Origin: Octopus sinensis
Taxonomy: Eukaryota
Reading direction: 5' to 3'
Length of the DNA: 64,000 nucleotides
NCBI RefSeq assembly: GCF_006345805.1
Contig: NC_043011.1
Location: forward strand, 33,492,464-33,556,463
The notes below the pieces were generated by a model, which saw nothing but the letters and a program-made list of their open reading frames with translations, was not told the origin of the DNA and did no database searches. Each line of letters begins with the position of its first letter. Within the stretch, counting starts at the first letter, position 1. This document shows positions 12,404 through 61,951 of the stretch, piece after piece. The position numbers and the translations under genes are program-made.

Positions 12404-12502
12404 TTCCTTGTCTTTCCTGATGAGAAGACGGCATAATGCACCCTTTATTCCTTCGGAATTAAGAGTATGCAGTCTTCGAAACATGTGTTGAGAGTAAAGG
12501 AA
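12404..12502 (+). ncRNA. Type I hammerhead ribozyme motif, copy 1
   Basis: Stem I ttcctt-gt-ctttc / gagag-ta-aaggaa; CTGATGA 12417-12423; stem II gaagac.gcata / tatgc.gtcttc; GAAA 12478-12481; stem III c-atgt-g; GUU, predicted cleavage after 12489. Confidence 0.8.
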
Positions 12503-12544
12503 TTTTGTTAAAATCTTCGTTCGACTCCATTCTTTCATTTATTC

Positions 12545-12607
<63 letters not shown>

Positions 12608-12681
12608 GTATGTATATATCACTGTGGACACCATGTAGGCAGTCATCAAAAAGATTTTGTTCGTCTTGAGGCTGATAGAGG

Positions 12682-12780
12682 TTCCTTGTCTTTCCTGATG
12701 AGAAGACGGCATAATGCACCCTTTATTCCTTCGGAATTAAGAGTATGCAGTCTTCGAAACATGTGTTGAGAGTAAAGGAA
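12682..12780 (+). ncRNA. Type I hammerhead ribozyme motif, copy 2
   Basis: Identical to copy 1; CTGATGA 12695-12701, GAAA 12756-12759, predicted cleavage after 12767. Confidence 0.8.
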
Positions 12781-12819
12781 TTTTGTTAAAATCTTCGTTC
12801 GACTCCATTCTTTCATTTA

Positions 12820-12865
<46 letters not shown>

Positions 12866-14164
12866 TATATACGTGTATATATACGCGTGTATACAGACGT
12901 GACGTATATATCTATATCTATATATGCATATATAAATGCATACACACATTCACACACACACACTCACACATATACATTCATACATGTATAGTCAAATACA
13001 TGTGAATCTGTGTATGTATGTATATATAATATATTGAACATGCTTTCGTACAAATTCCATCCTTAAAAAAATCGGTCAACATGAGAATATGGTAGAAGAT
13101 TCTTGCATATGTTACCTCGTTATGGGATCGAACCCGAAGGCAAACGTTTACAAAGTGAGCGTCTTAATCACATAGCCATGAACACATGCCATCTATCACA
13201 TCCTTTCTCCTCTTTGCCCAATAAAACAGCTATTAGTGTATCTCTAGTACTTCGTCTCGTAGCAACGCCTGATATCAAATTTCTTATTAGCGAACAGCAA
13301 GTGTCATGGAAAATTAAACCGATAAGCTTCCCACGAAGTTCCCCGAAAGAAAACAAGAAAAAAAAAAGAGAACAGATAAAGAAGCAAAATACATAAACAA
13401 ATAAATAGATAAAGATATTCGCTGCTTAGACTTCCTGAAATACTCAGCATTCAGAACACATACACGCACACGCACACACATGCATATCACGTACATATAT
13501 ATACGTACGTACGTATGTATGTAATCATGCATGTATAGTGTGTATTTCACTGTAGAACTCGAAGTAAATAAAGCTATTGATAACGGTATGTAAATACTGG
13601 CCTAAGGACCCTTTATGATAGAAAAAAAAAAAATCGAAGATTGCGTAACCAATGTGTGTTTGGAGCGGGGCACGAGCGTACGCATATATATGTGCATATA
13701 AAATCAGCCAGTTGTCGAAAAAAAAGCACATTCTAAAAAAGAAATTTTGTGTAGTTATAGCTTTTGTGCTGAGTAGTATATCCTTTGTTATGGCTTATAA
13801 CCAGTCAGAAAATTATCATTGGTTTCACACCTGCTATTGTGCGTAGCAATAACAGCCAAAATCTGCGATGAGGAATCGGTTTCTGACTGAAGAACGAAAG
13901 CTTTGAATGACCCGTCTGTCTCTTATGTTCGTCCCTTCGTGTATTTCACGTTATTTATTTATGTAAAGGTTTATATATATATATATATATACATGGCTGA
14001 AGCCCATAAACATTTTATTAATGGAGGTGAAAATGCAATCTTGGTCAGTTTGGTGATAAAAAAACAAAACAAAACAAAAAAAAAAAACGAAACGAAGAAA
14101 CCCCATTCTGAGAGGGAAAGAGTTACTTTCCTTTGAACGGTTTCTCTAGTCCACAAACGGAGAA

Positions 14165-14560
14165 AATCACGTTTCCGAAGAGAATTTTGTGTCACAAGGG
14201 CATTAGCTAAAAATTCCAGTTCTTGAATTCAATAAGGCATCCGGATCTTGCAAAATTTTAGGATCATTGTCATCTCATCCAAACAAAAGCTTGCACCGTT
14301 TGCTTCCGTTGAGGTACGTACGACTAGGGTTGTTCCAGTAGCTTCCAGTTAATTCTATATGGCATTCCCGCTTGTTTTAATCGCTATATATAACTGGGAT
14401 CATAAAAATGGATCTGTGATAATTTATCCTGGCCTTAAGGGGATCCTCCGTTATTCCAACATATTTCTGTATATGTGTTATTTCATAGACGTCAATGTTG
14501 CATCGACCTTCCACTAGGCACTCGCTGTTAACTGTACATGAACATCTTACCTTTGTATAG
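14165..14560 (-). mobile_element. Penelope-like element, C-terminal GIY-YIG endonuclease fragment (frameshifted)
   Basis: CSCTVNSECLVEGRCNIDVY...KYVGITEDPLKARINYHRSIF, then INWKLLE, SKRCKL and LLNSRT motifs typical of PLE endonucleases. Confidence 0.8.
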
Positions 14561-14758
14561 GGTTCTGTGGCAATCACTGACATCTCTTTTACACTCGTCG
14601 CACAGATGTTCGAGGCCCTTAATAATAATGATTTAAAATTTTGGCACAAGGCCAGCAATTTCGGGGGCGGCGGGGTAAGTCGATTACATCTGCCTCAGTG
14701 ATCAACTGGTTCTTACTTTATTGATCCCCGATAGAATGAAAGGCAAAGTAGGCCTCGG

Positions 14759-14791
<33 letters not shown>

Positions 14792-14922
14792 CCTTTCTAC
14801 TATAGGCATAAGGCCTGAAATTTGGAGAAGAGAACTAGTCGATTAGATCGATCCCGGTTTGTAACTGGTACTTAATTTATCAACCCCGAAAGGGTGAAGG
14901 GCACAGTCGAACACGCGGAATT

Positions 14923-14956
<34 letters not shown>

Positions 14957-14958
<2 letters not shown>

Positions 14959-17260
14959 TTTTTTTTATTGGCCTCATAGGTCTACATAGAACACATAGGG
15001 ATGCAAATACAAATCACAAACGGATCACAAACGTGTAAATATATAAAACAATAACATTGAAAAATTACAATTGCCCAATAGGAGGGGACTTTCAAGGGAA
15101 AACCGCGCAAACCCCACAGAAAATCACGGTTTTCCTGATCACTTAGGCAAGTGTTTCCTCTCTCTCTTACTCCACTTAGAAGCGCATGCTCAGAGCTGGC
15201 CCGTTCACCGAACCATGCTCACCATTCTTATCCACCATTCTTATCTTTCAATAAATTTGCTATTGATAGAAGGGAGCACCTCCCTCTCCACTCTGATCTG
15301 CCTCTTCAAGTGCAACCTGAAAAAGTTGATCAGAGATTCGGTTGAAAACAGCCCGTCTTTAGCCCTTTCAGTCTAGTCCACTACACAACCTCTTTCGCCA
15401 TGCCCAGCAGGTAGATGAAAACGCTTCCTTCCCGACCAAAGGAAGCAGGCAGGGCAATCTTAACAATAGTCTCGGCTGATAGCTGGATCCGTGCGACACA
15501 CGACCGCAAGTGCTCGACATAAACCTACACGTCAGAAATTGTCGGGCACTAGACGAGTGCGTGCAAAAAGGTTTCATCGCTCCACGCACATCTCGGGTAG
15601 TTCCGACTAATAGTACTTCTGTGCCTGAAGAGTTTATCGCGAACCGGCAATGTTCCTCGATAGCACTGCCAGGCCAGGGATTTCTGGAAATTGTCATTAG
15701 GCCCCGACCCGAAAGCCTTCCGGAAAAGACCGGCTAGTTATTCCTCATCGAAGCCCCAAGGACGTCGTCGAACCTATCCCCCACTAACCTCCAATAGAAC
15801 GACAAGGTAGAATTTCCACTGACCGCATTGCCCGGCTGGTAGAGGACTAAGAGGGCTTGTCGGCACTCAAGGTGCCACTCGCCCTCCTTCGATCCCTGCT
15901 TGACCCAGGGTTTCAGTTCCGTTCAAGAAGCGAGTTGAGGAAAAGCGCGCCTGACGAAGGGCAACCACACCTGATTACCGTCAAGGAAACGCTGGAGATG
16001 TCATAGCCTCAGCGTATACCTGTGCCTTCGCAATCACGGCATGCCCAGCCCCCTGCTCAGCAGATGGACCACCGGACAAGAGGAACGCGCCTCTTCTACA
16101 GAAAGCGAAAGAGTACATGAGGCGTGACAAGGAACAAGGCACAACGATCACACAGTGATAGATGATGAATGCGATGTACGTATTCGCCATTTCAAGAACA
16201 GTTTCCTCTCAGCTCATTTCTGGGTAAGCCTGGCTGTCTTGATCATCACCTCGTCCCAGTTATTGTCCACCTAGAGGTCTGAACCGAACCAGACCCCGAA
16301 TAGCTTAACCGGTCCGTCTGTCCTGCGTCCTACGATGCTGCTGGACGGCATAGACCTGCTTCTCCAGGTGCCCAGTTGCAGGCTAAGTGATTTGTCCAGG
16401 CTAATCTCCGCTCCTGTCTCTGCTTCATATTCCTTTAGAGCGCGGCCGATCGCCTTGATGAGCAAGGCGTCCGACACGGCAACAGTGACGTCGTCTGATT
16501 ACGCCGACCCGCTTCTTTCGCATCCTAGCTCTCGCAGGAAACCGCTCAACGCCTCAATTTTCCGTAGGAGTGGCTCTAAGCTCAACACATACAGAAGAGG
16601 CGAGAGCAGGCAACCGAGCGCAGAATACTAAACGATTCCGATAGGTGACAATTGGCCTTGGCCACAGAGGAGATGCCGCCGTAAATTGTCGGGATCCAAC
16701 CCATGAAAACCGGCCCAAAGCCGGACGTTCTGAGGACTGCAGCCAGATATCGATGGTGGACCCCGTCAAAAGCTTTCGATTAATCTAAATTGATCAGGGC
16801 CCCACCCGTGCCAGGTTTCCTAGCCACACCCTCTATGATGTATCGCATGAGGTGGAGGTTGTCGTGGATGTGCCTCGCCAATCAATCCACCGACGACAAG
16901 CACCAACCTCTTCACTAACACCTTGGCCAAAATCTTTAACTCTGTCTTAAGCAGAGTTATGGGACGGAAGTTATCTGCGCTATCTCTCTTGTCTGGGTTC
17001 TTTCCCAGCAGAGTAACCACATCTCGGCTAACAGCGGCGGGAATTCTTCCGTTCTGTTGCCAGTTCAGGTAGACGTCTGCCAAGAAGTCGCCGAGCAGCC
17101 CTGGCATACTTGCGTACAGCTCGTAGAGCAGAACATCTAAACCTGGCGATCTGCTCCTCTTGCAGCCAGCCATGGCTCCCCTTATTTTAGCAACTGTGAT
17201 CGGCCGTTCATAACGATCCGACTCCTCTGTCGAGAGTCGCCGCAGCCCGCCGAAGTATAA
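14957..17260 (-). mobile_element. 5'-truncated L1/Tx1-clade LINE (RT, zinc knuckle, 3' UTR), decayed
   Basis: ORF 16820-17173 SPGLDVLLYELY...FRPITLLKTELKILAKVL; VKLFGVWFGSDL; LPVRDKLFRH...PRC...ETFLHALV*CP; ends in an A-rich/(ATT)n tail. Confidence 0.92.
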
Positions 17261-17359
17261 TTGACATAGTTTGCCAATTGGATATTATGTCGGTATTATA
17301 TTACAATTGGTACAAACACCGCTCTGAGGCTGTAACTAGATATTATGCCGGCATTATAA

Positions 17360-17939
17360 AATCAAAACTGCTGACAAATGGTGCAAGTACCGCTCTAAGG
17401 CTGTAACTGAGGGAGAAAGTATCATGATTGTTTGGGACTTTCCTGTACATACAGACCGGACCATCAAAGCTGATAAACCAGATATTGTTATGAAAGACCA
17501 AAGCAATAACATCTGTTTACTGATTGACATGAGCATACCTTGTTTTCATAATATCTAGGCAAAAGAATTTGATAAGCTCAAACAAATATAAAGATTTGCT
17601 GATTGAAATCGAAAAAAAATGTGGCAACTCAAAACGGTTACAATTCCAGTGATTGTAGGAGCACCAGGAATGGTCAAAAAAAGGAATTGAAAATTACTGG
17701 AGGATGACCTTGGCTTACCATCCTTGCCGGAAGTGCAAAAGATTGTCTTAACTGGTACGTCAAACGTATTAAGAAGAGCATTGTCACTATGAATTTTCTT
17801 TCCTTTTTCTCCTGTATTTTCTTTGTTTTCTTTTTTCTCTGTCTTTCTTCCCCTTCATTTTCTTTCACATGACTACCAATGAGTTTCTTTGCCCTAGGTG
17901 TTGAGAAGACACTCGGAAAAATGGAAACAAAAATGAAAG

Positions 17940-17940
<1 letters not shown>
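17360..17940 (+). mobile_element. R4/Dong-type LINE 3' fragment (restriction-like endonuclease) with (AAT)n tail
   Basis: IVWDFPVHTDRTIKADKPDIVMKDQSNNICLLIDMSIP...YKDLLIEIE...IPVIVGAPG. Confidence 0.85.
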
Positions 17941-17971
<31 letters not shown>

Positions 17972-17999
17972 TATAATAATAATAAATAAACAAATAAAT

Positions 18000-18066
18000 G
18001 CCTTGATTCAGTACCAGGCAGTGACTCCCGTGGTTTCTGATATTAACTGATTGGAAGTTTTATCAT
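18000..18066 (+). mobile_element. 5' part of the ~555-bp AAT-associated element (remainder at 19282-19775)
   Basis: Matches 53231-53297; breaks at tatcat, exactly where the 19282 copy resumes. Confidence 0.8.
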
Positions 18067-18589
18067 TGGACACTTTGCAACAAGTATGGACTTCACAGGA
18101 CAAAAACTTGGTACGACCATAAACCTGAAGGCATCGTCGAAAATAGAAATGCAAAGATCCTATGAGATTTTATGATTCAGTGCGATTATGAGATAGGGAA
18201 TAGGAAGCTGGACATAGTCTTAAATGAGAAAGAAAACAAACTATGCTGGATATAGCATGCCCAGCTGACAAGGTATGCGATAAGGAAGAAAGAAAAGTCG
18301 AGAGATATGACAAGTTAGCTTGGGAAGTTAAGCAGTTGTGGTCGATGAAAAAGGTAGCAATAGTACCAATAATTGTCGGAGTCCTGGCAACAGTGAGCAA
18401 AAATCTCGAGAAGTACGTGGAACAAATAGGGGCTGCAATAAGAGTGGAGCACTTGCAGAAAACAGCACTGCTTGGAACCGCTCGAATACTCTGGAAGGTG
18501 CTCGAAAAATAAGAGGTGTTACCTTAGTTCACTGGTAGTGAACAGCTGACACCATAGTACATCTCCAGCATTAGAAGCTGTGCAAAGGC

Positions 18590-18590
<1 letters not shown>
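18067..18590 (+). mobile_element. R4/Dong-type LINE 3' fragment
   Basis: ORF 18243-18512 LDIACPADKVCDKEERKVERYDKLAWEVKQLW...IVPIIVGVLA...LQKTALLGTARIL; (AAT)n tail. Confidence 0.9.
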
Positions 18591-18631
<41 letters not shown>

Positions 18632-18818
18632 GATGATAATGATGATGATGATAATAATAATAATAATAATCCTTTCTACTATAGGCACCAGGCCTGAAAT
18701 TTTGGGGGAGGGGACTAGATGATTATATCGACCCCAGTGTTTCACTGGGACTTATTTCATGGACCACGAAAGGATAAAAGGTAAATCGACCTCGGTGGAA
18801 TTTGAAAATAATAATAAT

Positions 18819-18929
18819 AATAGAAAATTACTATTTGTAAATCTCTTAACGAGAGATAATAATCTTTACTTTAGAGTACTGTTGCTGAATATCTTTCGTT
18901 GAGAGATTTACAAATAGTAATTTTTTATT
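18819..18929 (+). repeat. Long inverted repeat / hairpin (about 40-bp arms, 31-nt loop)
   Basis: Core arms 18824-18858 and 18890-18924; all non-Watson-Crick positions are G:U pairs on the + strand. Confidence 0.9.
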
Positions 18930-19014
18930 TTATAGATCAGTGACTAGTTGTCACTTTGAAAACTATATATTTCGGACAGGAATTTGGCAGCACCACCTTT
19001 AGCGGAAAAATTAT

Positions 19015-19059
19015 TCTGTGCTGATGAAGGGAAATAACCTGGAAATTGTGATACACAGA
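19015..19059 (+). ncRNA. Minimal type I hammerhead ribozyme motif on a long rod (about 18970-19103)
   Basis: tctgtg CTGATGA agg-gaaataa-cct g GAAA t-tgtg-a TA cacaga; distal pairings agcacc/ggtgct and ttcggacaggaa/ttcttgtttgaa. Confidence 0.7.
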
Positions 19060-19226
19060 TATTGTTTTGAGCTGAGTGGGGGTGCTAAATGTTCTTGTTT
19101 GAAAAGATAAGGACACAGATCGTGTCGTATAGCCAGCTGGAGACGATGTCTCCTGGCGCTAAATTACAGTAACACTCGTCCTAAATCAGGACTGCCATGT
19201 TATGTGGGCAAATAATCTTTACTCTA

Positions 19227-19281
<55 letters not shown>

Positions 19282-19775
19282 TATCATGTACATTGTTTTG
19301 TCTTGGTATAAAAGATGGGCTACAGCAAATATTCTGCTCAATACCACAGATTTGCTTGTCAGTTGTTTGACCATTAACCAGTTGAGCATGTCCCTTAGTG
19401 GCTGACGATATGTGCATCTCTGATCACGAGCAGAAGTAGTGGGGGAGCATCATAGCCATGTGTTGAGAAGGATTCTTTGGGGTTTGAATAATTCACCTCT
19501 GGAAACATGGGTGTTTCGTTCAACGTCCTTAAACAACCCTTATTCAGGGACTTTTTGAGCGGGATGGGTTACTCGATCTGAAGAAAATTCTAACTGGGCT
19601 CCACCTGCAAGGTCATGTGCTGTTTATCTTGATATGAGATCACCATGTCGCGCACATATGGTTGTGATGCATGTGCCTAGTGTACCCTTATCAGACGGGT
19701 AGTCATGATGGGTATACTGGGCTTCGTATATTTTACCCCAGTGTCACTTTGATGGCATGCACTGCTCTCTCACTC
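19282..19775 (+). mobile_element. ~555-bp non-coding element associated with (AAT)n (3' part)
   Basis: Near-identical to 30334-30888, 53231-53785 and the reverse complement of 31518-32035. Confidence 0.9.
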
Positions 19776-19811
<36 letters not shown>

Positions 19812-20751: not shown

Positions 20752-20790
<39 letters not shown>

Positions 20791-28875: not shown

Positions 28876-29212
28876 TACTACTATACTACTACTACTAGCT
28901 GTAGTAGAAGAGCCACGATTAATAGTGTTTGAAACCAGGCCAATATATTTATATTTACGTGTGTGTGTGTTTGTATGTATACATACACACACATGCACAC
29001 ACACACACACATACATATATATTTAGAGAGAGAGAGAGAGGGGGAAAGAGAGCCATCTATTATTATACTTAATGTATATACACTATTGATAGGCCAGTTA
29101 CTGCAGTATTTTCCCAGTGATAACATCACTTATGGACACGCTGTATGAAAAAAACACCCCACCATAAATATAAAAGAGAGACAAGAATATATTCCAGCTG
29201 CGACCAGCTAGA

Positions 29213-29255
29213 GCACCAGATGCATTTCGGCCTTTTGGGACCTCTTCATTGACGC
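29213..29255 (-). ncRNA. Hammerhead-like motif with C3->A substitution, on a rod (about 29183-29279)
   Basis: Minus strand gcgtca ATGAAGA ggtc-ccaaaa-ggcc GAAA t-gc-a TC tggtgc; distal ctggctgcga/tcgcagctgg pairing. Confidence 0.65.
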
Positions 29256-29465
29256 ATATTCGCAGCCAGCCTCATTCTCAATCGAGAATTCGAAGTCTCT
29301 GATATAAGGAAAACAATGAATAAAACACCGACGTTGCGAATAGCCGCTCGCCTGATTAAAAATCAGGTATACGCGACTGAGACAGTATTTAATTAAAATA
29401 GCGATGTATGTATCATACTTAATGTATACACATTGTCAGTAGGCCAGTTACTGCAATGTTTGTCC

Positions 29466-29496
<31 letters not shown>

Positions 29497-31201: not shown

Positions 31202-31454
31202 ATTATTATTATTGTTGTTGTTGTTGTTGTTATTATTATTAAGACGGTGAGCTAGCAGAATCACTGGCACGCCTGGCGAAATGTTTAGCGGCTTTTCGTT
31301 CGTCTTCACTTTCTGAGTTCAAATTCTCTCGAGGTTGACTTGGCCTTTCATCCTTTCGGGGTCGATAAATTAAGTACCAGTTGAGTACTGGGGCCGATGT
31401 AATCGACTAGCCCCTTCCCCCGAAATTTCAGGTCTTGTGCTTATAGTAGAAAGG

Positions 31455-32094: not shown

Positions 32095-33350
32095 AGACGT
32101 TATACGGACACTATACCAAAAGAGCGAGCCGTAGTCAATGCCCAAAGGTCTTCTAGTCACTCCTTCTCCAACTTTCTGACACCCTCCTTAGAATCCTTGC
32201 TGTTCTTAACAAACCTGTTTTCTGTAACAATCCCATCCTGATGGTAATTCCCAACTTCTGGCGCCATGCATCCAATCTTTTACTAATCGCTCCCAGTTCA
32301 CCAAGTACAATAGGTACCACATCTAAGTGTCTGATTCTCCATAATTTCCTGATTTCCTTCTTTAGCTCCTGATATTTCTCAACTTCCTCTTTCTCATTCA
32401 CCCTGTAGTCCCACGGTGAAGAAATAACCGCAATAACTGCTTTGTTCTTCTTTTCTACAACAACAATGTAAAGTTTTCTAGTCACAATAAGGTGGTCACA
32501 AGATTTTATATTGTTCATTTTCAGCAACCCTTTCCGGCTGGTGCTCATAACGTTTCTAACCTCTGCTCAGGTCATGCTCATGATAGAGCTTCCAATGAAC
32601 CAAACTGGCCAGGTTGCCGTGCCTTCTTTTATACTCTTTCTGTGCAAGCATCTTACATTCACTAATAATGGGGTTTGTCGTTCCATCTTTCTTACCATGC
32701 AACCTCCAAAGTGGGGAAGTCACTGACTTGTCAATATTGAACTTGGTCTAGTTCTTTCTCTGCGCCTGTTCTTAGGCTGAGAAGACAAGGGTTTCAATTT
32801 CAACTTTCAAGTCATTTTTCTAGTTCATTCTCTGATCATTGTCAACTGTCTCAGGCATTCTCTACAAGAATTGATCATTTTGATATCTTTCCCTCCATTC
32901 AAGGTGTCATTTTGTCTGTCTTGTTTAATTTCTTCCTTTCCTGTCCTTCATCACGGCTTAGGACTTTTATCTTTCTTACTCCGGCCACCAATCTCTCCTT
33001 TGTATTCTTTACATACCATGCCAGATTAGTTTCCTCAGATTTCACACACAATTCACAGCTAACGAGACCTTTTCCCCTCTCTGTCACGATAGATACAACC
33101 TGTCCACGTCACATTTGGGGAGAACAGCGAGACCCTTGTAGTGTCATGATTTTCCTGATTTTTCTTATCAAGCTTCTAAGTTCATCACTTTTCCAATCTA
33201 TCACACCAGCGATATACCTTATAGTGGCATCGGCCCATGTGCCGACAACCAGTATCTTAACTTTAACACCAATTTCAGTCTCCGCTTATATTCCTTTGAT
33301 AACATCTCTTTCATTTGGTCTGTTTCCAGGATGCCTAAGTAATTACACCC
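32095..33350 (-). mobile_element. R4/Dong-type LINE fragment (RT thumb to RLE endonuclease)
   Basis: NYLGILETD; RGKGLVSCELCVKSEETNLAWYV; VEKYQELKKEIRKLW...VVPIVLGELG...LLQKTGLLRTARILRRV. Confidence 0.88.
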
Positions 33351-33460
33351 GTTGTGACAGAGGGTGCTGACCAGTACCGCTTATGCTAAAATAAGAGTTA
33401 AATTAACTCTAAAGCACTAAATTAACGACTGTCAAAGGGAGGTAAGTCCCGAGAGTACAT

Positions 33461-33516
33461 AGCGGTATTGCAATTTCGAATTTTGGTGTAGAACACCTTA
33501 ATTCTCATCAGCGGCT
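33461..33516 (-). ncRNA. Type I hammerhead ribozyme motif on a rod (about 33420-33555)
   Basis: Minus strand agccg CTGATGA gaatt-aa-ggtgt-tct-acacc-aa-aattc GAAA t-tgca-a TA ccgct; one C:C mismatch in stem I; distal aaggga/tccctt pairing. Confidence 0.75.
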
Positions 33517-33699
33517 CTTGACGCCTAGGGTTAAACTCAACTTCCCTTGTTAATCTTATAGGAAACACCGTTTAAATCCAATGCTGATTTTCCAAACAGT
33601 GAAAGTGTACACAGCAAATTAGAAGGGTGGCTTATTAGCAATTAGAACCGAAAGGCAAAATTAATAGAGGTCACAAAAGTGACTGTATCAGTATATATG

Positions 33700-34400
33700 T
33701 ATGTCATTGTTCAGTTTTATTTCAAGATTTCTTACCAATAGAGAAAGAGCCGGTTTCTAACCTAGATTCAAGGTTGATACATAGATGTATGTATGTATGT
33801 ATGTAGTATGTATGTATGTATGTATGTATGTATGTATGTATGTATGTATGCAGATTTGTATGTTTTGCTTTATGTATGTATTCTCATGCATATAGTTGCA
33901 TATCTAGACTTGCTCATATATATTTAAATGATAAACTTCTGGAAAGTTTTACAGATTTTTACAGTTCCAGTGATAGACTGGATCTGTAGCCTTCGAATTA
34001 GTTTTCTATTTTCTGGTTTTGAGAAGCCTAATTTCTCAAGATTTCATATCCCAGGGCCCCAATATTTACAGTAATAAACCTGAACTTGTAATCTGGATAG
34101 AGTAACTGCAGATTTCTCAATAGTTCAGCATAGGTGTTCTCCTTTTCACTGATCTTCAGCTTTATGTTAACATCCGCTGGGCAGCTAATTTCCACAATTG
34201 TGCACAGTTTCTTTTCTATATCCCAAATCATTATTGAGGTCTTCACTGGGACATTCCACCAGCACTCCTTTTTATTATGAGTGGATTTGGATTCTACCAT
34301 ACTGTGGGTTTTTATTTGTTTGTCCTTTGGATTATTCTTCCATGTCTTAGTAACATCATGTCTCATCGGGTAGATAATTCTGTGAATACATTTTCGGACA
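33700..34400 (-). mobile_element. RLE-type (R4-like) LINE 3' fragment, second family
   Basis: ORF 34028-34366 WWNVPVKT...IWDIEKKLCTIVEISCPADVNI...KENTYAELLRNLQLLYPDYKF; 3' end shared with 46340-46400. Confidence 0.8.
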
Positions 34401-34468
34401 ACTGCTTATGATGTGGGTGATATCTTCTGTGTTGTATGTATGTATGCATGTATGTATTATGTATGTGT

Positions 34469-39278: not shown

Positions 39279-39455
39279 GCGTGCGCTGCCTTAACATCTG
39301 TAGTGTAAGTACTTCAAATTTATCGCAAGTGTTGTAATACATAGTGGACTGTTTATATGTGTGTGTGTTGTTCAAATTTAGAGAAACAAAAGACGCAGAC
39401 AGATGAAGGAACAACGAGCAGACATATTAGTTCAACGCTTGCGAAGAATGGAAAA

Positions 39456-39496
39456 GTCTTTGACGTTTCGAGCCTACGCTCTTCGACAGAAAAGAT
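39456..39496 (-). ncRNA. Minimal hammerhead-like motif with variant core CUGUCGA
   Basis: Minus strand tctttt CTGTCGA a gagc-gtag-gctc GAAAC GTC aaaga; second family member at about 55285-55326. Confidence 0.5.
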
Positions 39497-50420: not shown

Positions 50421-50498
50421 ATAACACCAGAAACTGAGAAGTTCTTCTTTTCCAAACTCGAGCAAATTAAGTATAAACAGCAGGGGCAGTAATGAGAA

Positions 50499-50729
50499 GG
50501 CGACGAGCTGGCAGAAACATTAGCACATCGAGCGAAATGCTTAGCGGTATTTCGTTTACCACTACGTTCTGAGTTCAAATTCCGCCGAGGTCGACTTTGC
50601 TTTTCATCTTTTCGGGGTTGATAAATTAAATACCAGTTACGCACTGGGGTCGATGTAATCGCCTTAATCCGTTTGTCTGTCCCTGTTTGTCCCCTCTATG
50701 TTTAACCCCTTGTGGGCAATAAAGAAATA
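50499..50729 (+). mobile_element. SINE family A monomer with TSD
   Basis: agtaatgagaa at 50488-50498 and 50730-50740. Confidence 0.92.
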
Positions 50730-51378
50730 AGTAATGAGAAGAGAGACTCTCCCATCTTATGCTGCACAGCAATGAATGAGACTATTATCCTAATATCCTC
50801 GTTGTTAATGAAGAAACGATGCACATTTTCAAGCACATAGTCAACAGAAGATTATCTGATTTTATTAAAGTATGTTGGCTTTCTTATTCTTCACAATTCA
50901 TTTCATTGTAGAGGAACAAGAATGAAAAATTTGATTTTCTGTTTTCCTGATAAAAGTCAATATTTTACAGTGGTTACTTAAAAAGCGTGATCATCATATT
51001 AAACAGCCTACAGTATATTTCTATAAATCTTCAATTTATAGTTTCAATTATAGTTTCATATTATTCCATATTTAAATGCATATTGAGCAGAATGCTATAA
51101 TTTATATGATGAGCAGCGTAAAAGTCAATACAAGTAAAATTAAATACGTCATATTCAACATCTTCATATATTTTGAAAATTTTGCAATAAAACCTTATAA
51201 AATTTTTACAAGTTTTCAGTTATATATCATTTATATATAAAATATATTAAATATATTATTAGTTTTATATTTTAAAAAATACGTTGAATTTAATATAATT
51301 TAATACTATTTATAACATACAACCTGAACATGTTAACGAGTTCTATGACATGCATCTATCTGTCTGTCTGTCTATCTG

Positions 51379-51443
<65 letters not shown>

Positions 51444-51663
51444 TTATCTATCTATTATTCTATCTATCTATCTACCTACCTACCTACCTACCTATCTATT
51501 AATGTACATACGCACACACATGCACACACACACACAAACACAAACACATGTATGTATTTATGTATATTCCCAATCACATGGTTCCGAGTTCAGTCCCACT
51601 GCGTGACACTTTGGGTAAGTGTCTTTTACTATAGCACCGGTCCAACCAAAGCCGAAGCCTGTC

Positions 51664-51697
<34 letters not shown>

Positions 51698-51949
51698 AGA
51701 GAAAGATAGTAGGAGAGAGGGAGGGAGAGAGAGAATATGGGAGAGAGGGAGAGAGAGTTTATGTGGTTGTGGAAATTAGCAGCCCTTTTTTCAACTGAAC
51801 CTCTACCCTTCTGAAAACTCGTACACATCAATGTATGTATGTATGTATGTATGTATGTATGTATGTATGTATGTATGTATATGTGTATGTATACGTGTAT
51901 GTGTGTGTGTTTTTCTCTATCTGATTACCTCTTAGAATTTACTCTTTTG

Positions 51950-52925
51950 ATTGGCCAGCTGCTCGGTAGCAAGAAGGTAAAAAAAAAGACATAGGTATGG
52001 ATTTCTTCTCTTCGTCGCCCTCTCTCCAACTGCTAACCCATCATATTTCAAGAAGGCCTTGATGCCGATCTTTAATGCCCAGATACCATTAATCATCTGA
52101 AATATGTGAATTAAGGAATCCAAATTCAGCCCCAAATACTGAATATCAGGATATGTACGGATTCAGATGTTGCTCTAATGGCGGAGTCGGAGACTTGCAA
52201 AATCCGCAGGGATTTCCCAATCCAAACAGATCGAATGCTAGAGCATAACAGACCGGACCTGGTGGTAATGGACAGATGCACCACATGTGCTATGCGGCGA
52301 GCTGGCAGAAACGGTAGCACGCCGGGCGAAATGCGTAGCCGTATTTCGTCTGCCGTTACGTTCTGAGTTCAAATTCCGCCAAGGTCGACTTTGCCTTTCA
52401 TCCTTTCGGGGTCGATAAATTAAGTACCAGTTACGCACTGGGGTCGATAGATTAAGTACCAGTTACGCACTGGGGTCGATGGAATCGACTTAATCGCTTT
52501 GTCTGTCCTTGTTTGTCCCCTCTGTGTTTAGCCCCTTGTGGGTAGTAAAGAAATATATACAGTTAATGTTGCGTACCCCTTTGACTCTCGAATAGTCAAA
52601 AAGGAAGAAAAAAAATAGATATATACAACCCTCTTCAGTACAAAAAAAAGCCCGGCTATGGATAATGAAGAATGAGAAGATAGTGCCAATTATTGTTGAA
52701 TCCTTGGGGACAATATCAGAACGGATCAGGTGCAATATAAAGGAAAACGGTATAGAGTGCCAAATAGAATTGTTACAAAATGTTTGCCTCCTTGGCACGG
52801 CCAGAACAATCAGGAGAGTAATAGATAGTTGAAAAGAACAGCTAGTATAATACCGTAAGGTGTAGGCAGCAAGCCCGCTACGCACGCAAGACCCCACGAG
52901 TTCCAACGAAACCAGTGATAAAAAG
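51950..52925 (+). mobile_element. R4/Dong-type LINE 3' fragment interrupted by SINE A (52294-52555)
   Basis: KIRRDFPIQTDRMLEHNRPDLVVMD | ...IVPIIVESLGTI...LLQNVCLLGTARTIRRVI; (AAT)n tail. Confidence 0.85.
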
Positions 52926-53209: not shown

Positions 53210-53230
53210 GAATAATAATAATAATAATAT

Positions 53231-54235: not shown

Positions 54236-54616
54236 GGAAGCACTCCGTCGGTTACGACGATGAGGGTTCCGGTTGATCCGAATCAACGGAACACCTGCTC
54301 GTGAAATTAACGTGTAAGTGGCTGAGCACTCCACAGACACGTGTACTCTTAACGTAAGTTCTCGGGGATATTCAGCGTGACACAGAGAGTGACAAGGCCG
54401 GCCCTTGAAATACAGGTACAACAGAAACAGGAAGTAAGAGTGAGAGAAAGTTGTGGTGAAAGAGTACAGCATGGATCACCACCATCCCCTGCCGGAGCCT
54501 CGTGGAGCTTTAGGTGTTTTCGCTCAATAAACACTCACAACGCCCGGTCTGGGAATCGAAACCGCGATCCTATGACCGCGAGTCCGCTGCCCTAACCACT
54601 GGGCCATTGCGCCTCC
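54236..54616 (-). mobile_element. SINE family C, full length (head anticodon-like TCG, Arg; possibly an octopus OR-type SINE)
   Basis: Minus strand ggcgcaatggcccagtggttagggcagcggactcgcggtcataggatcgcggtttcgattccc. Confidence 0.9.
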
Positions 54617-55114
54617 ACTAACACCTACTAGCGCGCGCGCACAAACACACACTCACATTCATATATATGAAAGAGAGAGAAAAAGAGAGGGTGGAAGAGG
54701 GAGCAAAGGGATTTACAGGGAAAGAAAGAGAAAGTAGATACACACCTAATCTACAAAAATAGACTCTTTCGTTACAAGCACCAGCAGACGTGTGTGTACA
54801 TACATGTTTATGTGTTTCACGCCGTGCACCAATTGATGTGCACGCAGTATATATGTGCCAGATTTCGTCGGCTGCATATTCACCTATAACATTCAGCTGC
54901 GAAAGGTGCACTACGACCTCTTTTCCCCATTTCCCTCTTCCTTACTCTCTCCCTCCCCTTCTCTCTCTCTTTCACTCCCATATATATGTATATATGTATG
55001 TATGTACACACACACACACACACACACACATGTATAAACACACAAATTTTCTAGCAATGCTGGTGCTGATTTGCACCTTAGTCAGTGTAGTGACTTTGTG
55101 CTGTGTGCTATATA

Positions 55115-55195
<81 letters not shown>

Positions 55196-55284
55196 TATAT
55201 TTGGAATTTACGAAAAAACAAAGACGAAGACAGGTGTGTAAACACAAACAGGTGTATAGTTTAAACGCACGGGAGGGTGAGAAG

Positions 55285-55326
55285 GTCCTTTACGGTTTCG
55301 AGCCTGTGCTCTTCGACAGAAAGGAA
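55285..55326 (-). ncRNA. Minimal hammerhead-like motif with variant core CUGUCGA
   Basis: Minus strand tccttt CTGTCGA a gagc-acag-gctc GAAAC c GTA aagga. Confidence 0.45.
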
Positions 55327-55647
55327 CACGAGAAAATAAACATAGAGAAACAGAGGGTTAATGATTTGTTGTCTATGTTTGCGAAAATCATGTGTGTGTG
55401 TGTGCGCGCGCGCGTGCGTAGTGTGTGTCTGTGTGTGCGTGAGTCTGTGTGCGTGAATTTTTGTGCGTGTGTGCGTGTGTGTTTATGCGTGTGCATGTGT
55501 CTGTGTGCGTGCGTGCATGTGCGTGCGTATATATACGGTATATGTGTGTAGGTGTGTGTGTGTATATATATCTATATATATATATATGTACCTACACATA
55601 CACACATGTACAAATACACACATTCACACATACCACGCACACAGATT

Positions 55648-55692
<45 letters not shown>

Positions 55693-55695
55693 GAG

Positions 55696-55795
55696 NNNNN
55701 NNNNNNNNNNNNNNNNNNNNNNNNNNNNNNNNNNNNNNNNNNNNNNNNNNNNNNNNNNNNNNNNNNNNNNNNNNNNNNNNNNNNNNNNNNNNNNN
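55696..55795. other. Assembly gap (100 N)
   Basis: Run of N. Confidence 1.
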
Positions 55796-56017
55796 CTGAA
55801 ACAAATAGAACCTGAAAGAAGACATATATATATATATATATATTATATATATTATATATATATAATCCAACATGGCTTTGTGCATGGCGCTTTGTGCCGC
55901 TTTTAAAATAGGATCTTGTACTTATCTTAAAGACAACGGACCCAACTCTCAAAGAAGTATTATGCCAAACGAACCTCATGCCAATGCTTATCCATGAATG
56001 TGTACAGAAAACGTATT

Positions 56018-57350
56018 CTTTTCTACTCTAGGCACAAGGCCCGAAATTTTGGGGGAGGGGTAAGTCGATTAGAAATACCCCAGTATGCAACTGGTACTTA
56101 ATTTATCGACCCGAAAGAAAGAAAGGCAAAGTCAACCTCGATGGAATTTGAACTCAGAACATAAAGACAGTTGAAATCCCGCTAAACATTTCGCCGGGCG
56201 TGCTAACGTTTCTTATTTCTTTACTGCCCGCAAGGGGTTACACACAGGGGGGACAAACAAGGACAGACAAACGGATTAAGTCGATTACATCGACCACAGT
56301 GTGTAATTGGTACTTAATTTATCGACCCTCGAAAGGATGAAAGGCAAAGTCGACCTCGGCGGAATTTGAACTCAGAACGTAACGGCAGACGAAATACCTA
56401 TTTCTTTACTGCCCACAAGGGGCTAAACACAGAGGGGACAAACAAGGACAGACAAACGGATTAAGTCGATTACATCGACCCCAGTGCGTGACTGGTACTT
56501 AATTTATCGACCCCGGAAGGATGAAAGGCAAAGTCGACCTCGGCGGAATTTGAACTCAGAACGTACCGGCAGACGAAATACAGCTACGCATTTCGCCCGG
56601 TGCGCTAACGTTTCTGCCAGCTCGTCGCCTTGTACAGAAAACATATTGTAAATTTAAAAAATAAAAAAGCAGAACGTGTTGATATTGATCTGAAATTCTG
56701 ATACAAAGCTAGCAAGGTCGGGCTAGTCGATTACATCGACCTCGGTATTCAACTCGTATTTATTTTATTGACTCCCGAAAAGTTGAAAGGCAAAGTCGAC
56801 GTCTGCGGTGTTTGAACTCAGAACGTAAGGACGGACGAAATACCGCTATGAATTTTGCCCGGCGTTCTAATGATTCTGATTCGTTGCAGCCTTAGAACGT
56901 TTTAATAGTGATTTCAAGCTTTGGCACAAGGCCAGAAATTCCGGGAGGAGGGGGCTATTTGATTAAATTAACCTCAGTATTGATCTGGCTCTTATTTTAT
57001 CGACCTCGAAAGGATAAAAAGCAAAGTCGACCTCGGCGGAGTTTGAACTCAGAACGTAAAGGCTGAGGAAATGCCGCTACGCTTTTTGCCCGGCGTGCTA
57101 ACGATTCTGCCAGCTTGCAACATTATAACATGTCAATATGCTTTTCTACTCAAGACACAAGGCTCGAAATTTTGGGGGTGGTGGCCAGTCGATTAGATCG
57201 ACCCCAGTACGCAACTGGTGCTTAATTTATCAACCCCGAAAAGATAAAAATTAAAATGGTCGACCTCGGCAGAGTTTGAACTAAGAACGTAAAGGTGGAC
57301 GGAATACCGCTATGCATTTTGCGTGGCGTGCTAGCGATTCTGCCAGCTTG
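56018..57350 (-). mobile_element. Array of six or more SINE family A copies
   Basis: 56018-56630 flanked by tgtacagaaaac(g/a)tatt; further copies with the repeated spacer ttgcaacattata...tcaatat. Confidence 0.9.
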
Positions 57351-58252
57351 CAACATTATAGCATTTCAATATTGTTTTTATATAATCTGTGTAATTCATG
57401 TGTAATACAGCCACAATATGTTACTAATTACAACATATTGAATTCTCGTAATTAATTGCCTACTTTGGTAATTCAGTTAAATACATACTCCCGTTAATTA
57501 CATATAAAATTCAATATATGATGCTATTCAATTTAGAGAAATCGACTTTTCTAGAAAACATCCCAAGAAATTCCAAGAAATCACCTTACGCTCGTGTTTC
57601 ACCAATAAGTTAATATCATTGTTTTTGTTGTTATTGTTGTAGCTGTTTTCGTTGTTGTTCAGCTTCCAGATCATTCCTAATCGAGCAGCCGACCAACGAA
57701 TGATCAAAGGTGTTTCAGCTGTGACCATCCCGTGTTTTACTTTAGGCACAGTGTACTCGGGGCTAAATAATCCAATGTGCCTTTCTTTTCTAAGAAAACG
57801 TTGGGTTTTTGGGGGGGGGATGAAGGAAATTTGGCTGCTATTTCAAGCAAATTGAACAACTGCGTTGGGGCTCGCTCGTTAACTTGTTATCTTTATTACG
57901 TCACACCGTAATGAAGAAGCAAAATCAATCAAGTTGGCCTAATATCAAAAATTAATTGTATTCCGCTTCTTGTCATTTTTTTTTGTCGTTGTTATTGTTA
58001 TTGTTGGTGTTGTCATTATTGTGGTTGTTGTTTTCTCATCGTTAATTTCTCCAGTGCAGTGGATAAACAGAATCGGCAGAGCGTCGTGAAAACAATCTTA
58101 CGTCTTGAGGTGAAATTCTTTCAAGGTTGTCGTTGCCTTTCATACTTTCAGGGGTCGGGGAGTTAATAAAATAAAGTAGCGATCGCACATTGAGGTCCAT
58201 GTAATCGAAGGCTCAATCCACCAAAATATGTGATTATCTGCCTGTCTAAAAT

Positions 58253-58373
58253 AATCATGGAATCTTGTGCTTATCGTAGATTAACACAGGATCTTGTACC
58301 CATCTTAAATCAACATGGCGTCTTGCGCCTATACTAAATCAACGTAGGGGTTTTGTGTCTATTTTAAATTAAT
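58253..58373. repeat. Degenerate ~30-bp minisatellite (about 4 units)
   Basis: Units resemble aatcaacatggNgtcttgtgcctatNttaa. Confidence 0.6.
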
Positions 58374-59202
58374 GCTATTTCTTATTCCTTTATTGCCCAC
58401 AAGGGGCTAAACATAGAGGGGACAAACAAGGACAGAAAAAGGGATTAAGTCGATTACATCGACTCCAGTGCGTAACTGGTACTTAATTTATCGACCTCGA
58501 AAGGATGAAAGGCAAAGTCGACCTCAGCGGAATTTGAACTCAGAACGTAACGGCAGACGAAAAAATTAATGTTATTTCTGCCAGCATGGTAGATTGGCTG
58601 AACTGCTAGAATATCTGAGAAAATCAATTGCAGTATGTTGCTCTGGCCCATTCCGTTCTGTGTTCAAATACCGCCAGATTGGGATTTCGTTAATTTTTTT
58701 TTTAATTTCGGAATCGATAAAATAAAGTACCAGTGAAGTTCTGAGAGGGAGAGAGGGAGAGAAGGAGGGAGGGAGGTAGATGAATAGGAGAACCAGGGTG
58801 CGGTTACTTACATCAGCTGTAGTCAGTCTCTACACGTAATTTATGGCTTGGTGCCAGACTTAGAAATCAATAATATTAAGGTATTTATAAAAAGAAAACT
58901 AAACATTATCTCACATTAGGTGGTTGTTTTGATGATGAGCCAAATATAATAAATAATACTTGCTTTTAACTTAGGCACAAGGCCAGAAATCTGGGGTGAA
59001 GAAGTTCGTCAATTAAGTCGACCTCAGAACTTGGTCGGTATTTTATCTTAACAACTCCGGAAGGATGAAAAGCTACGATGACCTCGACGGAAATTAAATG
59101 CTGAAAGTAAAAACAAAAGCCGGAACAATTACGTAAAGATTCAGAACAAACAGACTATGGTAGGATTTGATCTCAGAACCTGAAGATCCGAAACAAATAT
59201 TG

Positions 59203-59498
59203 CAGTGATTCCCAAACTTTTTTAGGCCGCTGCTCCCTTGACACCAAGGTCTCGTTCTTAGCGTCACCCCATCACTCACCACCACAAACACAGAACACTT
59301 TCTACAGTAAATTCAAAACAACTGTATTTCACAAATAAAAACGTAATCTAATTAACCCAATATTTTGGTTGTTTATTTTACGTTCATTACCCCATTTGGC
59401 CACCCCCCCCATTATCGGACCCCACTTTACTTCAACGCACCCCTTGGCTCTTTCCACTGCCCCCAAAGGGGTAGTACCGTCCACTTTGGGAATCACTG
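59203..59498. mobile_element. hAT (Charlie-like) MITE, 296 bp
   Basis: TIR CAGTGATTCCCAAA / TTTGGGAATCACTG; 8-bp TSD aaatattg / aaatatcg. Confidence 0.88.
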
Positions 59499-59526
59499 AA
59501 ATATCGCACAAGTCGATGGTCTTTTT

Positions 59527-59905
59527 TACTCTTTTTCTTATTTCAGTCATTTGATTGCGGCCATGCTGGGGCACCGCCTTTAGTCGAGCAAATCGACCCC
59601 AGGACTTATTCTTTGTAAGCCTAGTACTTATTCTGTCGGTCTCTTTTGCCGAACCGCTAAGTTACGGAGACGTAAACACACCAGCATCGGTTGATAAGTG
59701 ATGTTGGGGGTACAAACACAGACACACAAACACACACACACATATATACGACGGGCTTCATTCAGTTTCCGTCTACCAAATCCACTCACAAGGCTTTGGT
59801 CGACCCGAGGCTATAGTAGAAGACACTTGCCCAAAGTGCCACGCTGTGGGACTGAACCCGGAACCATGTGGTTGGTAAGCAAGCTACTTACCACACAGCC
59901 ACTCC
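59527..59905 (-). mobile_element. SINE family B, full length
   Basis: As 47371-47807. Confidence 0.92.
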
Positions 59906-60255
59906 TAACGATTTCGCCAACCCAGCACCATGAATTGTTACTAATATTAACACAAGGCCATAAAATCAGTCTATTGAGGAGAGGGGTCAGTATTTAAATG
60001 GTAATTTATTTTACCGATCCCAAAAGAAAATAACACAAAGATGACTTCAGCGGGATTCGAATACAGAACGCACTAAGTCGGTTCAAAAACTGCGATGCAA
60101 TTGTCCGACGGTACTCCAACAATTCTGAGCCCAGTTCTCCGCACCAACTCCCACATATATTAAGAATTTGTGTTTATGAGAGAAATAAATATTTCATGAC
60201 GTTAATGAAGCTTAATTAAGTGTTTCATCTGTTGATAATTCTCTAATTCATTTCT

Positions 60256-60288
<33 letters not shown>

Positions 60289-60926
60289 TGTGAGAGAGAG
60301 CGAGAGAGAGAGAGGGAGAGTGTGTGTGTTTATAGGCAGGTGCATGTATGTGTGGTAGGTGTAAGTGGGCGTTTTCTATGTGAGAGAGAGAGAGAGAGAG
60401 AGAAAAAATGAGAGTACATGTGTCTGTTCATTTGTAATCAAATACGTAGGAGTCATCAAATGCGTTTTTGTATGTGTGCATGCGTGTATGCACACATACC
60501 TGTATGAATGTATGTATGTATATCTGTATGTATGTATGTATGTGTGTATATGTGTATGTATGTGTGTATGTATGTGTGTAGGTATGTGTGTATGTGTATA
60601 TATGTATGTGTGTATGTATGTATGTGTATGTATGTGTGTAGGTATGTATGTAGGTATATGTGTATGTATGTATACAGATAACTAGCTAGCTAGATAGATA
60701 GATACATAGATAGATAAATAAATAGATAGATAGATAGTGTAAATATGTGTGCGGAGGTAGCCATAGGTACATACATAGATATATACATACATATTTTGTG
60801 TGTGTGTATGTATATATATATGTATATATATATAATGTCTGTATGTATACACACACACACACACACACATATACACGCTCACATACGTAAGAGAGAGCGA
60901 GAGAGAGAGAGAGAGAGAGAGTGCGT

Positions 60927-60960
<34 letters not shown>

Positions 60961-61714
60961 TATCGGTATGTATAATGCGCCCGAAATGAATTCCCACTCG
61001 GCAACATTGAGAATGTTTTCTTGCGAAGATGTACGTACACACAGACACACACAAATACGCGCGCACGCACACACACGCGCGCGCCCGCACACACACGCGC
61101 GCGCGCCCGCTCACGCGCAAACACATGCATACGTACACACACACACAGCACATATGTAAGTATGTATATGTGTAACCATTAATGTTTAGCCAGCTGATGA
61201 TCTTTCACTTTCATTTCCTCACTTTTTCGATCTCTCTCTCTGTTTGTGCATATATATATATATATATATATTATTGATAAATATCAATTTCTACCCTTAA
61301 TTAATTTTATATAAATAAATATGTCTCTAACCGATAATTGACTGCTGCTAATTATTAGCTGCAGGCTAGTTTTCTCGGGCCTCAACGCGCAAAGTAAGGC
61401 ATTTGAAAGATATATTCAAATGTAATAGGCTGAACTCCATGCACGCGATATTTCGGTATCGTGTTTGCATCTAGTCCAGCAAATTGCATTTATAACGGAC
61501 CATGCTGATGATGGCTGCAGTTTTCCTTGCGGAAAATAACAGTCTAAACTTTTTAGTACATGGGTAATTATTTTATTTCGTATATTTTTCACTTGTTTAT
61601 TGGTATGGTTTTCTGCTGAGTTTGATCTGAGAACATAATCTTTTGTGGTGAATGGCGATTTGACGTCTATATCTAGCATGTTGACTGTCCACTTTTCGTG
61701 TTCAGTCCTTAATT

Positions 61715-61789
<75 letters not shown>

Positions 61790-61904
61790 GAGAGAGAGAG
61801 AGGGAGAGAGATACATATGAATGCTTATATACAACTGTCGAATATAAAAATACTCAATACATTGGTAAGAATTAATAAAACATTTATTTTGGTCGAGTCA
61901 GCCT

Positions 61905-61951
61905 CTTGCCACTCTGAGTTTCACCTAAAGGTACAAGGATCTTCAGGCAAG
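61905..61951 (-). ncRNA. Hammerhead-like motif with a non-canonical GUG site
   Basis: Minus strand cttgc CTGAAGA t cct-tgtaccttt-agg t GAAA ctc-a-gag TG gcaag. Confidence 0.55.

What the first reader, a model, noticed from the sequence alone, without database searches (positions are those of the whole stretch)
12404..61951. Unrelated hammerhead families share one architecture, each with its own self-complementary stem III
Seen: motifs at 12404/12682 (+, ACAUGU), 19015 (+, AUUGUGAU), 29213 (-, AUGCAU), 33461 (-, AUUGCAAU), 39456 (-, ACGU; relative at 55285) and 61905 (-, ACUCAGAGU). Flanks are unrelated between families, yet four families put the core at the tip of a long G:U-rich rod, and most lie within a few hundred bases of microsatellites. 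Known: minimal type I hammerheads with palindromic loop III mark PLE pseudo-LTRs and cleave as dimers. Inference: about one motif per 8 kb here implies many PLE/retrozyme lineages, and the different palindromes may act as family-specific dimerisation codes that could cleave host transcripts when a partner RNA is present.
Basis: partly seen in the sequence, partly recalled or inferred. Interest (0 to 1): 0.75.

Follow-up and report, generated by a model that had tools for sequence, protein, structure and literature searches.

The report
Retroelement hammerheads, six repeat families
These are hammerhead (self-cutting RNA) motifs inside six families of jumping DNA; their short palindromes likely let two copies of one element pair and cut, a known design, but two unrelated families share the same palindrome, so it is not a family code on its own.

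Summary
The motifs are real (5 strict hits in the window, 0 in 30 shuffles) and belong to six dispersed repeat families. A is the 3' end of an RT + GIY-YIG Penelope-like element (PLE), and E's relatives end a second PLE. B, C and D are 335-353-nt permuted units of the non-LTR retrozyme kind; F is short and has no partner found. Palindromic stem III and many families per genome are published. The code idea fails: B and D share AUCGCGAU (the window's B palindrome is CpG decay), E has the pan-animal ACGU, collisions match random draws, and a double hammerhead also pairs stem I between partners, which alone separates the families. Rods are family features of B, C and D only, with few G:U pairs. 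F's rod is an inverted copy. Genome density is about 1 per 80 kb, not 1 per 8 kb. The window copies of C, F and E2 are broken. The oddest point is a fixed A6U core in E (16,780 exact motifs, including a young coding lineage). The scan found both the swarm and A6U before on other DNA. Cleavage is untested.

The parts
12342..12540 (+). Family A copy 1: 5'-truncated 3' end of a young PLE; type I hammerhead, core CUGAUGA at 12417, long stem II, stem III ACAUGUGU, U17; ends in (TA)n
12620..12818 (+). Family A copy 2, identical, 278 nt downstream; the pair is predicted to fold as a double hammerhead in cis (-131.3 kcal/mol; two monomers -128.7; free minimum -131.5)
18858..19224 (+). Family B: 353-nt permuted retrozyme-like unit plus short overlap; core at 19021, A.G at 10.1/11.1, stem III AUUGUGAU (CpG-decayed AUCGCGAU), rod; short inverted piece at 18821-18858
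29051..29466 (-). Family C: 345-nt unit plus about 70-nt terminal redundancy; family core U3-A8 covariant (UUGAAAA), stem III AUGCAU, rod; window copy has A3/G8 (core at 29249)
33354..33685 (-). Family D: 335-nt unit; canonical core at 33511; stem III AUUGCAAU of a subfamily, family majority AUCGCGAU; rod
39354..39496 (-). Family E copy 1: minimal hammerhead, core CUGUCGA (A6U) at 39489, extra A after 9, stem III ACGU, C17; PLE-type 3' end
55190..55340 (-). Family E copy 2 (other subfamily), core at 55319, palindrome broken by one inserted base (ACCGU); ends in (TA)n
61800..61970 (-). Family F: short old element, core CUGAAGA at 61946, U.U at 10.1/11.1, stem III ACUCAGAGU; window copy G17 (family A17)
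61955..62005 (+). Inverted 5'-truncated pieces of family F that create the apparent rod of this copy
63676..63817 (-).

Best explanation
The motifs are type I hammerheads carried by two Penelope-like retrotransposon lineages (A, E), three 335-353-nt non-coding units (B, C, D) and one short family (F), and they likely cut the element's own tandem RNA by pairing two copies through the palindromic stem III plus stem I. Shown: family membership, the A and E link to RT + GIY-YIG frames, fixed 3' ends, ragged 5' ends, inverted truncated neighbours, more-than-unit copies, and letter changes that keep stem III self-complementary. Inferred: a multimeric transcript folds so that the unit between two cut sites closes into the rod and stem III pairs between successive copies; the cut unit of B, C or D is likely ligated to a circle and copied by a PLE reverse transcriptase from a fixed site roughly opposite the ribozyme; A and E likely land in (TA)n through PLE endonuclease preference. 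Palindromes differ because each lineage drifts under a self-complementarity constraint; partner choice would rest at least as much on stem I and the rod. Most genomic copies are likely inert fossils.
For: A hammerhead lies 506-598 nt after the GIY-YIG frame in 25 of 30 loci, and longer copies show an RT (YRDD) and the endonuclease in one frame. An E-type motif lies 857-1153 nt after a GIY-YIG segment in 30 of 30 loci, with (TA)5 101-133 nt further on in 29 of 30; that frame has weak Pfam GIY-YIG and RVT_1 hits. Unit periods are B 353, C 345, D 335; tandem copies occur; circular folds have z -9.0, -6.6, -5.0 and 38-43% GC. 3' ends cluster about 140-230 nt past the cut and copies run across the cut. 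Covariation: A stem II A-U to G-C and stem III AUAU to ACGU; C core U3-A8 (U3 in 19 of 24 other copies); D subclade of six with support 0.94. Same design in PMC4209133 (main text parts 1-2, supplement part 2) and PMC7229834 (parts 1-4).
Against: No cleavage was measured. 5' ends do not pile up at the cut site (B 1 of 89 exactly there, C 0 of 32, D 2 of 50 within 2 nt). In one real B tandem the double-hammerhead fold is 15.6 kcal/mol above the free minimum and 3.4 above two monomers. Eight-letter stems (A, B, D) can form 2 bp plus a tetraloop, which PMC7229834 ties to monomer cleavage in invertebrates, so dimers may not be needed. The window's own E subfamily (73-80% like the coding one) and family F were not linked to a frame. 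Pfam gave no hit for the A-lineage frames; their PLE label rests on motifs recognised from recall.
Confidence: 0.8

Rival explanations
1. Stem III palindromes are a selected family-specific dimerisation code that keeps lineages apart and lets family RNA trigger cleavage of host transcripts that carry a copy.
For: At least 13 further hit clusters with other self-complementary stems occur (mostly single hits). Mismatched stems pair poorly (-2 or weaker against -4.7 to -10.1 kcal/mol for A-D and F homodimers). A D subfamily changed both palindrome arms together. AUCAUGAU, a restored palindrome, is in excess among B variants (13 of 100; Fisher p 0.0016).
Against: B and D share AUCGCGAU, two unrelated hits share ACGUACGU, and E's ACGU is universal. 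Collisions equal random expectation. Stem I already excludes cross-family dimers. B's AUCAUGAU copies are scattered on the tree, not a clade. Three of 8 window copies are broken.
Confidence: 0.1
2. The motifs are vestigial: the elements spread without cleavage and the hammerheads only hitch-hike, at least in family E.
For: E has U at the invariant A6 in 99 of the first 100 listed of 16,780 matches, and A6C slows a hammerhead more than 10,000-fold in Mg2+ relative to Mn2+ (PMC7151607, passages). A's young subfamily has the weaker U17. Naiad PLEs spread without canonical hammerheads (PMC8557442, passages).
Against: In E the rest of the core, stem II and ACGU stay fixed while N7 takes all four letters and N17 three, the pattern of a constrained motif. 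A, C and D show covariation.
Confidence: 0.2
3. B, C and D work as monomers helped by the rod or by loop I-II contacts, and the palindrome is a leftover.
For: B and D can form 2 bp plus a tetraloop; invertebrate retrozymes cleave as monomers (PMC7229834). The monomer fold is favoured over the dimer in the one B tandem tested.
Against: C has only 1 bp plus a tetraloop and E no loop. Self-complementarity of the loop letters is kept through changes, which a monomer does not need.
Confidence: 0.25

Closest known systems
Minimal and small-palindromic-helix-III type I hammerheads in PLE pseudo-LTRs (Cervera and de la Pena 2014, PMC4209133; seen: main text parts 1-2 of 4, supplementary file 2 part 2)
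   Same: Motif at the PLE 3' end; extra base between 9 and 10.1 and ACGU stem (E); U3-A8 core (C); several families per genome with different or shared palindromes (Aedes CGCG, GGCC, CGCG); mostly solo truncated copies; U17 common.
   Different: E has A6U, absent from their alignment and consensus (CUGANGA). A has a long branched stem II. No cephalopod is listed in the supplement text searched.
Metazoan non-LTR retrozymes (Cervera and de la Pena 2020, PMC7229834; seen: parts 1-4 of 6)
   Same: B, C, D: non-coding 335-353-nt units, GC below 50%, tandem or more-than-unit copies, self-paired circular fold, one type I hammerhead per unit. U.U at the base of helix II (F) as in axolotl Amex2. Sixteen hammerhead families reported in one coral genome.
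   Different: Mostly single or partial-tandem copies with inverted truncated neighbours and fixed 3' ends, not long arrays. B has A.G at 10.1/11.1 and C a U3-A8 core. Circular RNA is not shown here.
Small hammerhead variants of PLEs that cleave as dimers (Lunse, Weinberg and Breaker, RNA Biol 14:1499; not held; known from recall and from passages of review PMC6765202)
   Same: Diminished palindromic stem III, PLE association, dimer cleavage.
   Different: Could not check whether it already lists A6U or tests heterodimers.
Natural core variants A6C (phage Bcep176) and U3-A8 (PMC3088659, PMC7151607; seen: passages)
   Same: Natural change at position 6; U3-A8 covariation as in family C.
   Different: Here U6, in a eukaryotic minimal hammerhead with at least 16,780 exact copies.

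Membership tests
Type I hammerhead ribozyme | Core CUGANGA...GAAA...UH with three stems, open at stem I | tested here: met
   Met for A and D; for B and F at family level with a mismatch at 10.1/11.1; for C as U3-A8
Type I hammerhead ribozyme | A at position 6 | tested here: not met
   Family E only: U6 in 99 of 100 listed matches
Type I hammerhead ribozyme | Covariation of stems | tested here: met
   A stems II and III, D stem III, C 3-8 pair; not assessed for F
Type I hammerhead ribozyme | Self-cleavage after H17 | not testable with these tools
   Only contigs were available; no pile-up of 5' ends at the cut
EN+ Penelope-like element (A, E) | One frame with RT then C-terminal GIY-YIG | tested here: met
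   A lineage frames of 535-670 aa (motifs by recall, no Pfam hit); E lineage RT + GIY-YIG, open frames up to 1009 aa
EN+ Penelope-like element (A, E) | Hammerhead near the 3' end | tested here: met
   25 of 30 and 30 of 30
EN+ Penelope-like element (A, E) | Inverted 5'-truncated neighbours and (TA)n targets | tested here: met
EN+ Penelope-like element (A, E) | Clade placement by RT phylogeny; full element flanked by two pLTRs | not tested
   No tree against reference PLEs was built; clade names would be recall only
Non-LTR retrozyme (B, C, D) | 150-400-nt non-coding unit with one type I hammerhead, tandem or more-than-unit copies, GC below 50% | tested here: met
Non-LTR retrozyme (B, C, D) | Highly self-paired circular fold | tested here: met
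   z -9.0, -6.6, -5.0 on majority units
Non-LTR retrozyme (B, C, D) | Expressed as linear and circular monomers | tested here: inconclusive
   B contigs in 4 of 4 runs of guessed RNA type; go-back joints of one unit length cannot be told from tandem DNA
Non-LTR retrozyme (B, C, D) | Canonical loop I-loop II tertiary contacts | not tested
   Not examined
Non-LTR retrozyme (F) | Unit-length tandem structure | tested here: inconclusive
   The one 370-nt tandem includes unrelated flank (L209); family-shared part is about 140 nt

The most novel reading that the evidence does not exclude
The most abundant hammerhead seen in this genome, in a still-young Penelope-like lineage, is a working natural A6U variant (CUGUNGA plus extra A, stem III ACGU) that standard CUGANGA searches miss: a tuned-down or cofactor-dependent obligate dimer. 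Beside it, subfamilies re-spell their palindromes in compensating steps (D, A) that make sister subfamilies, which share stem I, partly unable to cross-cleave.
Probability: 0.3. Interest if true: 0.55.

Novelty: new member of a known kind. Interest (0 to 1): 0.3.

Why it matters
The swarm is the published PLE and retrozyme design in one more animal, so it matters mainly as material. It offers ready natural pairs for an open question, whether PLE hammerheads need to cut and how partners are chosen: B and D have the same palindrome but different stem I; D1 and D2 have the same stem I but different palindromes; E has at least 16,780 copies with a core change expected to slow cutting, yet sits in a lineage with 97-99% identical, open frames. 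If E cuts, descriptor-based counts miss a large class; if it does not, PLE spread does not need cleavage.

Tried and rejected
Rfam scan: no hammerhead family among the 150 rows shown of 347; the top rows were microsatellite noise. The LINE-like fragment at 32153-33354 was considered as the host of D; rejected because D homology stops at 33354 and other copies lack it. The descriptor hit at 34159 (-) lies inside a LINE frame and has no palindrome; rejected. A B subfamily with AUCAUGAU: not seen on a 50-copy tree with palindrome and CpG columns masked; 20 of the copies were picked by their palindrome and some aligned poorly. Pile-up of 5' ends at the cut: none. Run search: no RNA holder listed; contigs of four runs of guessed type were laid on B only, read C at 19047 at full depth and C at 19049 in 52-100% of depth, and cannot show expression, ends or circles. 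E tandem L196 and F tandem L209 are local duplications with flank. Paper searches: hammerhead + octopus + Penelope, hammerhead + retrozyme + cephalopod, octopus + genome + Penelope + ribozyme, hammerhead + A6U, hammerhead + heterodimer + palindromic + retrotransposon, double hammerhead / trans-cleavage / retrozyme: the listings showed no paper on these families, on A6U in PLEs or on a palindrome code; hits other than those cited were seen as listings only. Lunse et al. and supplementary file 1 of PMC4209133 could not be seen and may bear on A6U. Intron strand bias was not tested (no annotation). The taxon guess (an octopus) is recall from repeat content.
Full report
Observation. The eight motifs are in the sequence. 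A strict type I descriptor (core, stems I-III, H17; U3-A8 and position-6 variants allowed only with G10.1-C11.1) gave 6 hits in the window, 5 with a self-complementary stem III. Thirty local shuffles gave a mean of 0.07 hits and none self-complementary, and the reversed window gave 0. C, D and F are missed by the descriptor because the window copies are mutated. On 80 evenly spaced 10-kb stretches (799,700 bases) it gave 14 hits, 10 self-complementary, and 0 in the reversed and two shuffled controls. That is about 1 per 80 kb, or roughly 34,000 genome-wide (16,000-63,000). BLAST with the six family majorities found 8 core-spanning copies in the window and 9 in the 800 kb; the families were chosen from this window, so part of that contrast is built in. 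The window is a rich spot, not the norm.

Families. Each motif belongs to a dispersed repeat (first-look candidates: E 2811, D 506, B 2663, A 2189, C 355, F 194; lower bounds, best 40 scored). All show fixed 3' ends and ragged 5' ends, and inverted truncated neighbours are common. A is young (95-100% identity). Longer copies run into a frame ending in a GIY-YIG-type domain. The hammerhead lies 506-598 nt after that frame in 25 of 30 loci, and eight longer stretches show RT and endonuclease motifs in frames of 535-670 aa. Pfam did not hit these frames, so the PLE label rests on recalled motifs. An E relative follows an RT + GIY-YIG frame (weak Pfam hits). The 150 best matches to its endonuclease are 96-100% identical, with open frames up to 1009 aa, and 30 of 30 fetched loci carry the motif about 1 kb downstream, then (TA)n in 29. 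The window's own E subfamily is 73-80% like this one and was not itself tied to a frame. B, C and D are permuted units of 353, 345 and 335 nt with tandem or more-than-unit copies and stable circular folds. Their 3' ends form clusters (B +169-178 and +223-234; D +131-145 and +180-195; C about +141-170 and +191-204 from the cut), and copies pass through the cut site, as expected for a circular or uncut multimeric template. F shares about 140 nt and has no partner found.

Palindromes. A reads ACAUGUGU then U17; older relatives have ACAUAUGU then C17 (16 of 62 rows) or ACACGUGU then A17 (4 of 62), with an A-U to G-C change in stem II. B's source is AUCGCGAU: 27 of 100 listed matches, 66 more being CpG transitions of it, the window's form 4 (hand count). 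D's commonest form is the same AUCGCGAU (8 of 30), but a clade of six that includes the window copy (support 0.94, palindrome and CpG columns masked) carries AUUGCAAU or a one-letter variant: a true compensating change. C has AUGCAU with a U3-A8 core (U3 in 19 of 24 other copies), the variant described for Schistosoma (PMC4209133). E has ACGU, the commonest minimal form in animals. F has ACUCAGAGU with a central mismatch. A scan of all 1.57 Mb fetched gave 169 distinct hits in 33 clusters, at least 13 of them further clusters with self-complementary stems, mostly single hits not verified as families; two unrelated ones share ACGUACGU. Ten 8-letter palindromes show 2 collisions against 0.7 (uniform) or 1.9 (position 2 as observed) expected. 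So self-complementarity is kept, but nothing shows avoidance between families.

Mechanism. In a double hammerhead the strand that supplies U16.1-H17 also supplies the 3' arm of stem I, so each core must pair stem I with its partner (follows from the geometry; dimer model as in PMC4209133). B and D pair perfectly in stem III (-10.1 kcal/mol) but form only 1-2 stem I pairs next to the core. Partner choice is thus set by stem I and the rod even where palindromes coincide. The palindrome alone could separate only sister subfamilies such as D1 and D2. The rod is what the unit between two cut sites forms when its ends meet. It is strong in the B, C and D majorities, weak in A, absent in E, and in F it comes from an inverted copy; G:U pairs rise from 4 of 57 in the B majority to 10 of 52 in the window copy, as decay would give. 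For the window's A tandem the cis double hammerhead is within 0.2 kcal/mol of the free minimum; for one B tandem it is not favoured. All cleavage steps are inferred.

Microsatellites. All cores are within 274 nt of one, against 58% of background positions within 300 nt (p about 0.02). At family level A, E and F end in (TA)n or similar repeats, a PLE bias described in PMC8557442 (passages).

A6U. The pattern with A6U and C7 has 2,794 exact matches; with positions 6 and 7 free it has 16,780, control 0, and U6 in 99 of the first 100 listed, while N7 is U 52, A 22, C 17, G 9 by hand count. Four related hits keep A6. A natural A6C is slow in Mg2+ (PMC3088659, PMC7151607; passages). I found no paper on A6U in PLEs, but Lunse et al. 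was not available. I noted the variant before opening earlier notes; the scan had seen it in this genome and others, and the swarm reading too.

Verdict. The architecture is known; the family-code and host-cleavage ideas are unsupported; three of eight window copies are broken. New members of known kinds, interest 0.3, with the A6U lineage and the D1/D2 and B/D pairs as the parts worth a bench test.

Noticed in passing
window 32153-33354 (-) and 33940-34405 (-): Two 5'-truncated, broken LINE-like fragments whose C-termini look like restriction-like endonucleases (label from recall; no Pfam hit); the first ends in (GAT)n and abuts family D.
   Followed up: partly
   Followed up: partly
family B: The double change that restores a palindrome (AUCAUGAU) is about twice as common as independence predicts (13 of 100), yet is not a clade; the other restoring change (AUUGCAAU) is not in excess. 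Unexplained.
   Followed up: partly
L207 (G000:C10064:35291-36905): Array of seven 165-nt truncated family B pieces ahead of a full unit, suggesting repeated template jumps or a smaller circle.
   Followed up: no
families B, C, D: 3' ends fall in two clusters about 35-55 nt apart, roughly opposite the ribozyme on the circle; resembles the PLE tail described in PMC8557442.
   Followed up: partly
L199-L205, A-lineage frames: A long Asn/Ser-rich low-complexity insert between the RT-side conserved block and the GIY-YIG domain, kept in frame in all long copies.
   Followed up: no
family F loci L141-L165: Many copies start about 12 nt before the core and abut an inverted copy that starts at the same place (head-to-head palindromes).
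   Followed up: no
window 968-6233, 31205-31422, 50461-52590, 56720-57372: A very abundant SINE-like repeat with 184-nt internal tandem units.
   Followed up: no
window 16820-17284 (-): Fragment of a LINE-type reverse transcriptase (weak RVT_1 hit).
   Followed up: no
L039, L036, L189: Three further single hits with the U3-A8 core besides family C.
   Followed up: no
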